From: Malacoraja senta
Taxonomy: Eukaryota
DNA: 64,000 nt
Assembly: GCA_038087875.1 (NCBI GenBank)
Contig: CM075988.1
Location: 21,330,001-21,394,000, forward strand
Direction of reading: 5' to 3'
Position numbers and translations under genes: made by a program. Positions 8,372-55,970 of this stretch are shown in pieces. Position 1 is the first letter of the stretch. The number at the start of each line of letters is the position of its first letter. Under the pieces are notes generated by a model that saw only the letters and a program-made list of their open reading frames with translations, was not told the origin of the DNA and made no database searches.

Positions 8372-9249
8372 CCTGAACAGGATTAGAGGTGGACATTTGG
8401 ATAATGGATATTTTGGAAAACTTGTTCCAAGTAGGGCACTGTGGCGCAGCGGTAGATTTGTTCCTCACAGCACCAGAAACCAAGTTCGGGTGCTGACTCT
8501 ACGGAGTTTGCACGTTCTCCCTGTGACCACCTGGGTTTTCTCCGGGTGCTCCAGTCTCTTCTCACATTTGCCTCCACCGCCCTCTGAGGCAGAGAATTCC
8601 ACAGACTCACCACTCTCTGTGAGAAAAAGTGTTTCCTCGTCTCCGTTCTAAATGGCTTACTCCTTATTCTTAAACTGTGGCCCCTGGTTCTGGACTCCCC
8701 CAACATCGGGAACATGTTTCCTGCCTCTAGCGCGTCCAAGCCCTTAATAATCTTCAACAATGTGATAATAATGTAGTCATTCATTCATTAAACATGCACA
8801 CAAGGTGATGGGTAATATCAAATGAAGCATTGGATACGACCAGGTTTAAAGCACGTTGTTCAAGCGGTTGTCTCGGACTAAACAGCTTTCAGATTCTGGC
8901 CCTGACTTTGTCAACAAGGCAAACAGAAATACATCTGTTTCATAGTAGTTGAGGTGGGGTGAGAATAAGAGCGGTCATTATTTACTGCAAACATTTGCCC
9001 CAGATCTTACCGCTCGCTCCTCTTTGATTTCCCTTCACTTCAGTAAACAGGAGTTGATGCACAATGAAGGGCCGCAGCTGAGTCCACAAATTGTGGCCTC
9101 ACTCGGAAAAGTCACCATGAGAGGGGCACATGGAACCGCAGGTGCTGGTTTGCAACACACACAAAAAAAGAGACCAAGTGCTGGAGTAACTCAGCGGGTC
9201 AGGCAGCATCTCTGGAGAACGTGGAAAGGCGATGTTTCGGGTCGGGACC

Positions 9250-9303
9250 AGGGTGGGAGATTGCAACCTTCACTTGGTCCACCCTGTTTCGACTAATGCA
9301 ATC
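9250..9303 (+). ncRNA. HDV-like self-cleaving ribozyme fold
   Basis: P1 AGGGUGG/CCACCCU; P2 GAUUGCA/UGCAAUC; P3 ACC/GGU; L3 UUCACUU; minimal P4 around UUCG; J4/2 CUAA with the catalytic-C equivalent at 9293. Confidence 0.75.
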
Positions 9304-9372
9304 AACCCAACTAATAGATCAAATCGAACAAGTTGACCTACAACTGTGCACGCCATTAGCAAGAAGAAGAAG
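9250..9372 (+). mobile_element. Short non-autonomous retroelement with 5' HDV-like ribozyme and (GAA)n tail (Vingi-dependent candidate), copy 1
   Basis: Inserted inside a Penelope repeat with a degenerate TSD (GGGTCGGGAC / GGGTAGGGGAC). Homologous to 54268-54601 and ends GCACGCCATTAGCAAGAAGAAGAAG. Confidence 0.8.
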
Positions 9373-10583
9373 GGTAGGGGACTCTTCTTCAGACTGATCG
9401 GTATGTAGAAGGGTCTCGACCCGAAACACCCCCCCACCCCACCCATTTTCTCCAAAGATGCTGCCTGACCCACTGAGTTACTCCAGCACTTTGTGTCTAC
9501 CTTTAGGATTAACCAGCATCTGCAGTTCCTTTTAATGATATTCCTATTTATGGTGCCTCAGTCAAGTCTCCAGTTCACCTGGAGATGTTCTTCTTCCAAT
9601 ACTTCGAATATTAGCTCCAAGATACAAACTCCAGTAATCTGCCAACCCAATGGTCCAGCATTTAGATGACTCAACCAGAGCTCCAGTTTCCCAACCTTGT
9701 TCAGAGACGAGGCCCGGGCATTAACTGGGAGTTGGGAGTCTGGGATTAACTGGGAGTCAGACAGCAGGGAAACAGGCCCTTCACCCCAAATCATCTGGAC
9801 CAACTGAGCTGCTCCATCTAGTCCCATTTGCCCACGTTTAACCCAGATCCCTCCAAACCTTCCCTGTCCATGTACCTCTCAAAAGGGCACTGCCTCAAAA
9901 AGGCAGCCGGCATCGTCACCACCCTGGGCACGCTCTCATTTCACTCCTGCCATTGGGAAGAAAGTACAGGAGTCTGAAAACCGTGACTTCCAGGTTTCCA
10001 GGTTCAGGAGCAGCTTCTTCCCAGAAGCCATCAGGTTCCTGAACACTGCATAACACCAACTAAACTATGAATTACAAACTGGCTTGGTCACGCTGGGGAT
10101 TTGGGGCTTTTGTTTCGAAAGACTATAGGTTTTATTTTTAATTATTGAACTGTTCTATTTGCTGATTATGTTACCTATGAGTTCTGTGTCTACAAACCAG
10201 TTATGCTGCAGCAAGTAAGAATCTCATTATTCTGTTTTTGGCACAATTCAACACTCTCGACTCTCCTGATCCTTGTCTCTCAAATGTTGTTTTCGTACCA
10301 GCCTCAACTACCTGCTCCGGCAGCTCGTTCCATATAAACCACCACCCTCTGAGGGAATAAGTTGCCTCTCAGGGCCCATGACACGAGAACCCTGGAAGAT
10401 TTAATGGCAGAGTCTTACTTGAGTTTAGTTTAATTGAGAGATACAGCACGGAAACGGGCCCTTCGGCCCACCGAGTCCGCGCTGACCACCGATCCCCATA
10501 CACTAGCACTATCCTACACAATAGGGGCAATTTGCAATTTTTACCAAAGCCGAATTAACCTACAAACCTGTACATCTTTGGAG

Positions 10584-54155: not shown

Positions 54156-54267
54156 AAACTGAAGATCTTGGGAAACTCAAAACTGGCAGTCACAGAGAGA
54201 ACGTACAAACTCCGCACGGACAGCACCCGTAGTCGGGATCGAACCCGGGTCTCAGTTGCTGTAAGGG

Positions 54268-54601
54268 CTTCTTCTTCTTGCGTATGGCGTGCACAGCCAA
54301 AAGTTGTAGGTCATCTTGTTCTATTTGATTAAGAAGGAACTGCAGATGCTGGAAAATCGAAGGTAGACAAAAGTGCTGGAGAAACTCAGCGGGTGCAGCA
54401 GCATCTATGGAGCGAAGGAAATAGGCAAAGTTTCGGGCCGAAACGTTGCCTATTTCCTTCGCTCCATAGATGCTGCTGCACCCGCTGAGTTTCTCCAGCA
54501 CTTTTGTCGACCTTGTTTTATTTGATCTTGTTTGTGCACGTCAGGTTGATTGCATTAGTCGAAACAGGGTGGACCACGTGAAGGTTGCAAACTCCCACCC
54601 C
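54268..54601 (-). mobile_element. Short HDV-ribozyme retroelement, copy 2 (interrupted by a Penelope palindrome at 54330-54511)
   Basis: 10-bp TSD GCTGTAAG(G/A)G at 54258-54267 and 54602-54611, inside an HE1 SINE; tail CATACGCAAGAAGAAGAAG. Confidence 0.85.
54548..54601 (-). ncRNA. HDV-like self-cleaving ribozyme fold
   Basis: P1 GGGGUGG/CCACCCU with a G1.U wobble; P2 GUUUGCA/UGCAAUC (one mismatch); P3 ACC/GGU; L3 UUCACGU; J4/2 CUAA. Confidence 0.8.
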
Positions 54602-55970
54602 GCTGTAAGAGCTGTAAGGCAGCAACTCTACCGCTGCGTATCCATGCCAACCTGTGCTATGTTGGCCGCTGTTCCAAGGCAACGTGAGGTGCAGATGGAG
54701 CCAATGGTGGCGAGTCTGGTCTGAGTGATGGACTGGGCCAGATCTACAACTCTCTGCAACATCTTGCGGTCTGGTGATGAACTGTTCGCAAACCGCGCTG
54801 TGTTGCAGACCCGTGTAGGAGCGTGGCATCTTTGAGAGGGGAAGTCTCGCACGAAAGCAGCTTTCACTGAAATGACTGAGACACTAACTACATCTAATAT
54901 GAAACGAAAAATACGAAAAAAATAAGGCTTGTCTTGACTGACAAACCAGACCAATTTTCCAAGATATGGTCTCCTTTTATTGAATTTCTTCAACAACATA
55001 ATGGTTGAACACAAACTCAAAACCGACGCTAGGGTGGGGTGAGCGGGCGTAGGGAAGGACAGTGGGATATATCTCCGCTTCTTTCACTTCTTCGTTAGTT
55101 CTGGGGTTTTTCTTTTTTCTTTTTCGTGTCTTTCTCGAAATTCTTTCTTTTCTTTTTCTTTTCTTCTTTCTTTCCCTTTTTTTCCCTTTTTCCTTTTTTT
55201 CCGATTTAGTTATTAGTTTGCAAAATGTTAAAATTGAAGCAGTACGAAAATTGTATAATTGTTATGTCGATTACATTCCCTTAGTACAATTGCGTCTAAT
55301 AAAATAAATATTTAAAAAAAAGAAAAAGGAAGAAAGCAACTTTTTCCTCTTGCGCCCATGACTGAGCCTCAGCCTCCGTGACGTGGCAGATGTACGGGTG
55401 GGGTCAAAGTGCAACTCCACCGGGGGAAAGGAAAAGATATCTTTCAACTGCTCTCACCCTTTTCATTAAATACGAAACAGAGAAACAGGCGAGGTTCTAA
55501 ATAATGATTAAGGATTGATTTTTCACAACAGAAGCATCTCAATGATAATAGATGATGAAAAGAGCAGAGAGGGAGAATAAAGCGATATCTATCATTAGAA
55601 AAAAATAGCGTCAACCCAATGAGACTAATGGATGACAAGACCCCGGAGTTAATGGGCAGGGTCGTGGGGTCTTAAATGAAGTTACTGTAGATGCATTCCT
55701 TATAATCGATCACATTTCCCTGGATTCCGCAGAAGGGTCAGAGGACTGGAAAACTGCAAACGTAATACCAAGTAGGTCAGTAACGCTAACATCTGCCATT
55801 GGGAAAATGCTGGAATCCATTATTAAGGAGATATAACGTGAGAGTTACAAAGCCATAATGCAACCTAGCAGAGCCAATTAGATGTTTGGAAAGCAAAAAT
55901 GTGTTTTGCAAGTTGCTCGACTTCTTTGTGGATGTGACAATCAGGGTGGGTGGGGGAAGCCAGCAGATGT

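What the first reader, a model, noticed from the sequence alone, without database searches (positions are those of the whole stretch)
9250..9372. Independent second insertion of the HDV-ribozyme element, with pairing-preserving variation
Seen: same element on the opposite strand in a different host repeat, with its own degenerate TSD. Position 1 is A instead of G (A-U rather than G.U, P1 intact) and P2 is a perfect GAUUGCA/UGCAAUC. L3 has one G-to-U change. The body carries deletions while the ribozyme segment is full length. Both copies start at ribozyme nucleotide 1. Inference: two copies in 64 kb suggest an abundant family whose 5' end is set by self-cleavage.
Basis: partly seen in the sequence, partly recalled or inferred. 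Interest (0 to 1): 0.75.

Follow-up and report, generated by a model that had tools for sequence, protein, structure and literature searches.

The report
Ribozyme-headed SINE-like retroposon copy
This is an old copy of a short, abundant mobile element whose first 54 bases fold like a miniature hepatitis-delta-type self-cutting RNA, and the same genome carries relatives of that RNA, on jumping genes, that closely match the mammalian CPEB3 ribozyme.

Summary
Window 9250-9372 (+) is a second, independent copy of a ~135-nt retroposon, with an (AAG)4 tail and a degenerate 10-11 bp target-site duplication, inserted at the apex of a palindromic host repeat. The other copy lies at 54601-54268 (-).

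The family is abundant. Its first 24 nt occur exactly 3230 times in the 1.94-Gb genome. Of 29 copies picked by their 3' half, 25 start at nt 1-3. Target-site duplications end at position -1, so the element's first base is G1 of the predicted P1 helix.

The 54-nt head has the nested double-pseudoknot topology of HDV-like ribozymes, without P4. It scores below Rfam's cut-offs. However, the same genome holds at least five related families that pass the cut-off of Rfam's CPEB3 ribozyme model, at up to 64 bits. One heads a ~3.3-kb LINE that also ends in (AAG)n. Another heads a second P4-less short element.

P1, P2, P3 and P4 covary between families, while L3, P1.1 and the J4/2 cytosine stay fixed.

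Most likely the head cuts the element out of read-through transcripts and a LINE copies it. Cleavage was not tested. The A1 and L3 changes in this copy are private mutations of a dead copy, not evidence of selection.

The parts
9240..9249 (+). 5' copy of the target-site duplication (GGTCGGGACC), last bases of the left arm of the host palindromic repeat
   Evidence: compare 9373-9383
9250..9303 (+). 54-nt P4-less HDV-like (CPEB3-type) ribozyme head. P1 9250-9256/9279-9285; P2 9259-9265/9297-9303; P3 9266-9268/9276-9278; L3 9269-9275 (G to U at 9274); P1.1 C9271-G9286; linker 9287-9292; J4/2 CUAA 9293-9296 with the candidate catalytic C9293
9304..9360 (+). element body, carrying a 10-nt and a 7-nt deletion relative to other copies
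   Evidence: alignment of 30 copies
9361..9372 (+). (AAG)4 3' tail
   Evidence: the same tail ends LINE family A and short family E
9373..9383 (+). 3' copy of the target-site duplication (GGTAGGGGACT)
9169..9498 (.). host: palindromic (foldback) repeat whose apex received the insertion
   Evidence: inverted repeats I1 and I2; very high summed contig depth over the arms in four runs
54548..54601 (-). ribozyme head of the other copy in the window (G1 at 54601; A11 to U gives a U.U mismatch in P2)
54268..54601 (-). whole other copy, interrupted by a palindromic repeat (arms 54360-54436/54438-54514), inserted in a tRNA-like SINE with duplication [T/C]CTTACAGC (54610-54602 and 54266-54258)

Best explanation
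The feature is a dead copy of a promoter-less, non-autonomous non-LTR retroposon. I call the family S; it is about 135 nt plus an (AAG)n tail.

Its first 54 nt are a minimal, P4-less member of a CPEB3-type lineage of HDV-like self-cleaving ribozymes. In this genome that lineage heads several LINE and short-element families.

Proposed cycle:
1. A source copy is transcribed as part of a longer host transcript.
2. The head folds into the nested double pseudoknot (P1, P1.1, P2, P3) and cleaves 5' of G1, using the J4/2 cytosine.
3. The released RNA starts exactly at G1.
4. Its (AAG)n 3' end is taken in trans by the reverse transcriptase of an (AAG)n-tailed LINE such as family A, and copied by target-primed reverse transcription. 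This makes the 10-13 bp duplications.

Shown here: the family, its boundaries, its duplications, the fold topology, covariation with related families, the kinship to the Rfam CPEB3 model, and the absence of tRNA-like heads.

Inferred: catalytic activity, co-transcription from host promoters, and the identity of the LINE partner.

The window copy itself has a G to U change in L3 and two body deletions. It is most likely inert.
For: Family and boundaries.

Fold:
- For a canonical copy, the two best Rfam matches out of 4227 families were both HDV-like ribozymes on the right strand. CPEB3_ribozyme scored 15.6 bits (E 0.035) and HDV-F-prausnitzii 17.5 bits (E 0.12). In both only the P4 part of the model was skipped, L3 UUCACGU and CCCUGU were identical to the CPEB3 consensus, and CUAA aligned to J4/2.
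- The own genome searched with RF00622 gave 39 of 59 scored places over the 35-bit cut-off, best 64.2 bits.
- Representatives of families A to E score 61.3, 54.5, 47.7, 45.8 and 36.2 bits.

Context of the relatives:
- Family A heads a LINE of about 3.3 kb. Its ORF carries Exo_endo_phos_2 and RVT_1. It ends in (AAG)n and has an 11-bp duplication.
- Family E is a second P4-less short element with an AAG tail and a duplication, with 928 exact copies of a 24-mer.

Covariation:
- 63 P4-less rows: 93.4% of cells paired against 36-49% when partners are slid, and 10 of 18 pairs changed on both sides.
- 24 P4-bearing rows: 88.9% against 33-45%, and 12 of 26 pairs.
- C22-G37 (P1.1) is kept in 43 of 44 and 24 of 24 rows.

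Conservation: the ribozyme has fewer non-CpG changes than the body.

No tRNA-like gene was found in four loci that hold S or E copies. No Rfam SINE-head family matched.
Against: - No cleavage assay and no RNA data. No run on record as RNA holds the stretch, and the runs laid were contigs.
- Family S scores far below Rfam's cut-offs (15.6 against 35, 17.5 against 44), and the window copy gave no ribozyme hit at all.
- P1.1 has only one standard pair. The second would be U.U, as in the CPEB3 consensus printed.
- Nested folding energy is no better than that of shuffles, with z from -0.5 to +0.9.
- In the covariation counts, the measures 'pairs with a change on both sides' and 'further pair types' do not exceed the shuffles (293/500 and 500/500). 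Most both-side changes are single differences between families, not repeated events.
- The structure was drawn partly from these same sequences.
- No LINE with an S-type head was found. S shares nothing with LINE A beyond the tail and a few bases before it, so the partner is a guess.
- A fixed transcription start would give equally sharp 5' ends.
Confidence: 0.75

Rival explanations
1. The head descends from a CPEB3-type ribozyme but no longer cleaves, having lost P4 and having a weak P1.1. On this reading the family's uniform 5' end comes from a transcription start or from the way the LINE enzyme finishes cDNA synthesis. The head would be kept for another reason, such as protein binding or RNA stability.
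For: Sub-threshold Rfam scores for S. Only one standard P1.1 pair. No thermodynamic signal. No RNA or cleavage data.
Against: P4-less HDV-like ribozymes are reported as active in vitro (preprint 10.1101/2023.06.13.544163, section 3 read). Two separate short families, S and E, kept exactly the catalytic core while dropping P4. The J4/2 C, the L3 C and the G after P1 are conserved. Non-CpG positions of the head vary about four times less than the body. The 5' boundary defined by the duplications falls exactly on G1.
Confidence: 0.17
2. It is an ordinary Pol III SINE with a tRNA-, 5S- or 7SL-derived head, and its 5' end is the Pol III start. The resemblance to a ribozyme would be incidental.
For: Short length, abundance, LINE-type tail and duplications are those of a SINE.
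Against: ARAGORN finds no tRNA-like gene in L109, L012, L155 or L127. Rfam gives no tRNA, 5S, 7SL or snRNA match in the region or in a canonical copy. The only family-level matches are HDV-like ribozymes. The helices covary with those of LINE-borne ribozymes.
Confidence: 0.04
3. It is a chance arrangement of complementary stretches in a repeat.
For: The fold was first drawn by eye, and the descriptor used is post hoc.
Against: The descriptor gave 0 hits in 40 shuffles at 0 mismatches, against the real hit. Related families pass Rfam's curated cut-off. The slid-partner controls collapse to 33-49% paired.
Confidence: 0.01

Closest known systems
HDV-like ribozymes at the 5' ends of non-LTR retrotransposons (R2, R4/Dong, RTE, Baggins, L1Tc)
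   Same: The ribozyme sits at the very 5' end, and its cleavage site coincides with the element's first base. The proposed role is release from a co-transcript. Passages of PMC3774820 were read. Ruminski et al. 2011 is cited there but is not held in the library.
   Different: Here the carrier is a ~135-nt element without any ORF, present in thousands of copies. Its ribozyme lacks P4. The autonomous relatives in this genome carry a CPEB3-type sequence rather than the insect or trypanosome types.
R2 SIDEs and NARTc (non-autonomous elements that keep a LINE's 5' ribozyme and 3' end)
   Same: The architecture is the same: ribozyme head plus LINE-type 3' end, mobilised in trans. The abstract of PMC3414825 was read; for PMC3383444 I saw only the start of the abstract in the search listing.
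   Different: SIDEs are rare internal-deletion derivatives of a recognisable parent. For family S no parent LINE with the same head was found, and only the (AAG)n tail is shared with LINE A. S is dispersed and abundant, not site-specific.
Mammalian CPEB3 ribozyme (Rfam RF00622)
   Same: Families A to E pass the model's curated cut-off at 36-64 bits. L3, the P1.1 region and J4/2 CGAA match the consensus. Family C also shares P1 (GGGGGCC/GGCCCCU), most of P2 and the start of P4 with the printed consensus.
   Different: The mammalian ribozyme is described as a single intronic sequence conserved in mammals (passages of PMC10919898 and PMC8256844). Here the sequences are multi-copy heads of mobile elements. 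Family S itself does not reach the cut-off and lacks P4.
Minimal HDV-like (theta) ribozymes of gut phages and metagenomes
   Same: The P4 domain is replaced by a short linker, and the rest of the double pseudoknot is kept (preprint 10.1101/2023.06.13.544163, section 3).
   Different: The preprint reports those from phages and metagenomes, with only 12 hits in bacterial genomes and none reported in the eukaryotic genomes it scanned (human, mouse, protists). It links them to tRNA processing. These are eukaryotic, sit on retroposons, and are related in sequence to CPEB3-type ribozymes.
Hammerhead-bearing retrozymes and twister-bearing Schistosoma non-LTR elements
   Same: They are short non-autonomous retroelements that carry a self-cleaving ribozyme (search listings only).
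   Different: The ribozyme class is different. For retrozymes the cycle is also different (tandem copies, circular RNA).

Membership tests
HDV-like self-cleaving ribozymes | Nested double pseudoknot: P1 and P2 crossing, P3 inside P1, P1.1 crossing P3 | tested here: met
   Window copy: the helices listed under parts. Family level: 93.4% of 785 cells paired against 36-49% slid. The descriptor finds only the two copies in the window.
HDV-like self-cleaving ribozymes | Cleavage site 5' of position 1, with G1 closing P1, usually as a G.U wobble | tested here: inconclusive
   The family has G1 opposite U36 (GU in 26 of 44 cells with letters on both sides; the unpaired cells are mainly family E, whose P1 seems one pair shorter). 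The window copy has A-U. The duplication-defined 5' end equals G1. Cleavage itself was not tested.
HDV-like self-cleaving ribozymes | Catalytic cytosine at the first position of J4/2, followed by N-A-A before the 3' strand of P2 | tested here: met
   CGAA in the older S subfamily and in families A, C and D; CUAA in the younger S subfamily, the window copy and B; CCAA in E. It aligns to J4/2 of two Rfam models. This shows presence only, not function.
HDV-like self-cleaving ribozymes | Two-pair P1.1 between L3 and the bases after P1 | tested here: inconclusive
   C22-G37 is kept in 43 of 44 and 24 of 24 rows. The second pair would be U.U, as in the CPEB3 consensus printed by Rfam.
HDV-like self-cleaving ribozymes | P4 helix (dispensable in the 'minimal' subclass) | tested here: not met
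   Five to six unpaired bases stand in place of P4 in S and E. Families A to D have a covarying P4, with 6 of 8 pairs changed on both sides.
HDV-like self-cleaving ribozymes | Self-cleavage giving a 5'-hydroxyl product | not testable with these tools
   No raw RNA reads were available.
Rfam CPEB3_ribozyme (RF00622) | Score at or above the curated gathering score of 35 bits | tested here: not met
   Family S: 15.6 bits for L012, no hit for the window copy, and no hit for L109 at E<=1. Met by families A to E of the same genome, at 36.2 to 64.2 bits.
SINE in the strict sense | Pol III head derived from tRNA, 7SL, 5S or snRNA | tested here: not met
   ARAGORN found none. Rfam found none.
LINE-dependent non-autonomous retroposon (SINE-like / SIDE-like) | Short, no ORF, target-site duplications, 3' end like that of a LINE in the same genome | tested here: met
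   Duplications of 10-13 bp in 19 of 31 copies with a recognised tail. The (AAG)n tail is shared with LINE A. Sharing is limited to the tail, so the partner is inferred.

The most novel reading that the evidence does not exclude
The mammalian CPEB3 ribozyme may be a domesticated 5' end of an old vertebrate LINE lineage that is still present in this genome as several LINE and short-element families. Within that lineage the ribozyme was twice pared down to a 54-nt P4-less core that serves as the 'promoter substitute' of abundant short retroposons. These would be the first minimal HDV-like ribozymes in a eukaryotic genome, and a concrete answer to where CPEB3's ribozyme came from.
Probability: 0.45. 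Interest if true: 0.9.

Novelty: new variant of a known kind. Interest (0 to 1): 0.74.

Why it matters
HDV-like ribozymes on retrotransposons are known, so the principle is not new. Three things are new, as far as my searches reach (searches found no paper on them).

1. An abundant short retroposon uses a ribozyme instead of a Pol III promoter to define its RNA.
2. That ribozyme is of the P4-less 'minimal' kind, so far reported from phages and metagenomes.
3. It belongs to a set of retrotransposon heads that match the model of the mammalian CPEB3 ribozyme well above its curated cut-off.

The third point makes an open question testable, namely where the CPEB3 ribozyme came from. It also gives a natural series, from with P4 to without P4, with different P1, P2 and P3, for structure-function work.

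Tried and rejected
- Rfam at gathering thresholds on the whole window: 0 hits. At E<=10 on 8500-10200 and on 9240-9312: no ribozyme family.
- Thermodynamics: the nested minimum-energy folds reproduce P1+P3 but are no more stable than shuffles. This is uninformative for a pseudoknot.
- RNA evidence: no RNA holder listed.
- Laying contigs of four DNA-type runs on 8700-9900 was swamped by the palindromic repeat. Contigs stop in its arms and none bridges the insertion, so no empty site could be shown. The only usable point is that the bin 9274-9314 has very high summed depth in all four runs.
- Search for a LINE with the S-type head: the ribozyme's last 18 nt followed by non-S sequence gave 20 hits (younger type) and 52 hits (older type). 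Nearly all are S copies with indels.
- Search for a LINE sharing the S 3' end: the last 24 nt preceded by non-S bases gave 0 hits. blastn of S against the LINE A copy found only the AAG tail.
- LINE clade: Pfam gives only RVT_1 and Exo_endo_phos_2, and the ESM Atlas gives generic clusters. The clade is left open.
- Earlier notes of this scan: nothing.
- Papers by Ruminski et al. 2011 and Webb et al. 2009: not held. What I say of them rests on citations in other papers and on recall.
- Rows dropped before the counts. The first covariation counts used only copies whose fixed-spacing parse held. I repeated them with all parsed copies. There L145, L090 and L111 were left out for lack of an L3-like anchor.
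- In one search, only 21 of the 40 copies fetched by nt 1-24 were used: those of the older subfamily that were not truncated or interrupted.

Full report
**1. What is at 9250-9372**

Read on the + strand, the stretch begins AGGGTGGGAGATTGCAACC and ends in CAAGAAGAAGAAG at 9372. It is flanked by GGTCGGGACC (9240-9249) and GGTAGGGGACT (9373-9383).

On both sides lie the arms of a palindromic repeat, 9169-9249 and about 9412-9498. The element therefore sits at the apex of that repeat.

A self-comparison of the window finds one relative, on the - strand from 54601 to 54268. It sits in a different host, a tRNA-like SINE. It has its own duplication, [T/C]CTTACAGC, and a palindromic repeat nested inside it.

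**2. A real, abundant family with sharp ends**

The repeats remind me of cartilaginous fishes, but that is recall and I did not test it.

- The 123-nt query gave 1720 first-look candidates, and all 40 scored ones matched.
- Thirty copies align over about 135 nt, after which the flanks become unrelated and a duplication follows the (AAG)n tail.
- Exact counts: nt 1-24 occur 3230 times. Nt 31-54 of the younger subfamily occur 649 times. The reversed-pattern controls gave 0.
- To see 5' ends without bias, I searched with the 3' half only. Of 29 non-window loci, 25 extend to nt 1-3. The other four are truncated or fragmentary: L039, L041, L055 and L036.
- Of 40 copies taken in genome order by exact nt 1-24, 31 have a recognisable tail. 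Of those, 19 have an exact 10-13 bp duplication ending within 2 nt of the first G, 7 have 6-8 bp, and 5 have none by my simple rule.

The element's first base, defined without any reference to RNA structure, is thus the first G of GGGGTGG.

**3. The fold**

Numbering from that G, the helices are:
- P1: 1-7 with 30-36, with G1 opposite U36.
- P2: 10-16 with 48-54 (GAUUGCA/UGCAAUC).
- P3: 17-19 with 27-29.
- L3: UUCACGU.
- P1.1: C22 with G37.
- A 5-nt linker where P4 would be, then C44-N-A-A before the 3' strand of P2.

P1/P2 and P3/P1.1 cross, which is the HDV topology.

Rfam sees nothing at its curated thresholds in the window, nor in the window copy at lax ones. For a canonical copy (L012) searched alone, the two best of 4227 families are both HDV-like ribozymes on the right strand: CPEB3_ribozyme at 15.6 bits (E 0.035) and HDV-F-prausnitzii at 17.5 bits (E 0.12). 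Only the P4 part of each model is skipped. These scores are far below the cut-offs of 35 and 44 bits.

A post hoc descriptor of the P4-less fold hits only the two copies in the window, and nothing in 40 shuffles at 0 mismatches (3 hits at 1 mismatch). Nested energy folding returns P1+P3 but is no better than shuffles.

**4. The decisive context: relatives in the same genome**

Searching the genome with RF00622 gave 39 of 59 scored places above the cut-off, best 64.2 bits, out of about 102,000 rough first-look candidates. I fetched small pieces of these and they sort into families.

- **Family A** scores 61-64 bits and has an 8-bp P4. It lies at the extreme 5' end of a LINE, with unrelated flanks up to the first G. 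One copy followed downstream (L122+L169) has an ORF of more than 860 aa with Exo_endo_phos_2 and RVT_1. It ends in ...CACGAAAAGAAGAAGAAG and is bounded by the duplication ACAGAACAAAA. That makes an element of about 3.3 kb with the same kind of tail as S. Only 10 exact copies of its first 24 nt exist, as expected for a LINE's 5' end.
- **Families B, C and D** (54.5, 47.7 and 45.8 bits) have other P1, P2 and P4 sequences. Family C is the closest to the printed mammalian consensus in P1, P2 and the start of P4.
- **Family E** (36.2 bits) lacks P4, like S. It heads another short element with an AAG tail and a duplication (L127). A 24-mer of it occurs exactly 928 times.

S is the most diverged member of this set.

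**5. Covariation**

The structure counts were made on MAFFT alignments.

| Set | Rows | Cells paired | Partners slid 1-3 columns | Pairs changed on both sides |
|---|---|---|---|---|
| P4-less (S, E, both window copies) | 63 (45 distinct) | 93.4% of 785 | 36-49% | 10 of 18 |
| P4-bearing (A to D) | 24 | 88.9% of 610 | 33-45% | 12 of 26, including 6 of 8 in P4 |

In both sets no shuffle in 500 reaches the observed percentage paired or the observed covariation score.

Against this:
- The measures that count pairs or pair types do not exceed the shuffles (293/500 and 500/500; 39/500 and 460/500).
- Most both-side changes are single differences between families.
- I drew the structure partly from these sequences, although it is the published HDV/CPEB3 topology and Rfam's own P1, P3 and P4 annotation agrees.

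Narrower first counts, on copies with a clean parse, gave the same picture.

L3, the G after P1 and the J4/2 cytosine are constant across families.

**6. Subfamilies and conservation**

Of the 40 copies picked by nt 1-24, 24 have CCGCCCU (or CUGCCCU) in P1 with J4/2 CGAA. Ten have CCACCCU, mostly with CUAA. Six were truncated or unparsed. The window copy belongs to the second, younger type.

The C31-G32 CpG in the P1 3' strand is placed so that both of its decay products keep pairing: G6.U31, and U5-A32, which is the younger type.

Among 21 older-type copies, non-CpG differences from their column majority are 5 of 483 in nt 25-54 against 64 of 1449 in the body (p 1.8e-4). CpG sites differ equally, 17 of 147 against 13 of 126. 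A cruder version, against single reference copies, gave 8 of 614 against 134 of 1860, but that is inflated by private changes of the references.

I read this as many source copies that differed in the body but had to keep the head. The sample is small, and it was chosen by an exact match to the neighbouring 24 nt.

**7. What it is not**

- No tRNA-like gene was found in four loci carrying S or E.
- No tRNA, 5S, 7SL or snRNA family appears in Rfam.
- No LINE carries the S-type head.
- No element shares the last 24 nt of S with a different upstream.

**8. Mechanism**

Taken together, S is best read as a promoter-less short retroposon. Its RNA is cut out of longer transcripts by its own head and copied by an (AAG)n-tailed LINE. 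This is the strategy described for R2 and its SIDEs (abstract of PMC3414825) and for other non-LTR clades (passages of PMC3774820).

Cleavage, co-transcription and the partner are inferred. The window copy has A at position 1, G to U in L3, about 5% substitutions and two deletions. It is a decayed insertion, and its 'pairing-preserving' changes carry no weight.

**9. Comparison and novelty**

P4-less HDV-like ribozymes are described as first found in metagenomic samples and since assigned to gut phages. A scan of human, mouse and protist genomes in that work reported only 12 hits, all in bacterial genomes (preprint 10.1101/2023.06.13.544163, section 3).

The CPEB3 ribozyme is described as an intronic sequence conserved among mammals (passages of PMC10919898 and PMC8256844). 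The latter review notes that HDV-like ribozymes have only about six invariant nucleotides.

Against that background, matches of 45-64 bits, with runs of 18 identical bases to the model consensus, speak for common descent between these retrotransposon heads and the mammalian ribozyme rather than convergence. I could not test this across species.

Eight literature searches found no report of such elements. The library lacks most subscription papers, and I saw no supplements.

**10. Verdict**

I file it as a new variant of a known kind.

Noticed in passing
window 9169-9498 and 54360-54514: A palindromic (foldback) repeat with arms of about 77-90 nt. Its arms draw summed contig depths of tens of millions in four runs, against about 40-80 for unique flanks. 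It must be among the most abundant repeats of this and related genomes. It is both host (9250 copy) and guest (54601 copy) of family S.
   Followed up: partly
G000:C1:229135528-229243016 (list): At least 13 family-S heads, all on the + strand, spaced 4-12 kb apart. This looks like a tandemly duplicated segment that carries an S copy.
   Followed up: no
L069 and L080 (about 1410-1545 in each): An S-type head alone (nt 1-54, no body or tail), flanked by a 25-nt perfect inverted repeat. The two loci are identical, so they are a duplication or were assembled twice.
   Followed up: no
L133 (G000:C8:937590-937760): The first ~30 nt of the family-A ribozyme (P1 3' part to P3) are repeated three to four times in tandem upstream of a complete head. 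This may be a trace of template jumping at the 5' end.
   Followed up: no
5' junctions of L081-L120 and of family-E loci L147-L168: The base just before G1 is T in 24 of 40 S copies and in most E copies. In L127 it belongs to the target-site duplication. This suggests a shared target or second-strand preference of the mobilising enzyme.
   Followed up: partly
L169:2585-2800: After the stop of the LINE-A ORF, another frame encodes a C-x-C-G...H...C-P type cysteine/histidine motif. This copy probably carries a frameshift near the C-terminus.
   Followed up: no
window 54602-54690 and 54180-54267: The host of the other copy is a tRNA-like SINE (…GGTAGAGTTGCTGCC…GGGTTCGATCCCGAC…). It also appears next to other S copies (L008, L016, L030).
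   Followed up: no
window (position not looked up): The window contains 200 N.
   Followed up: no
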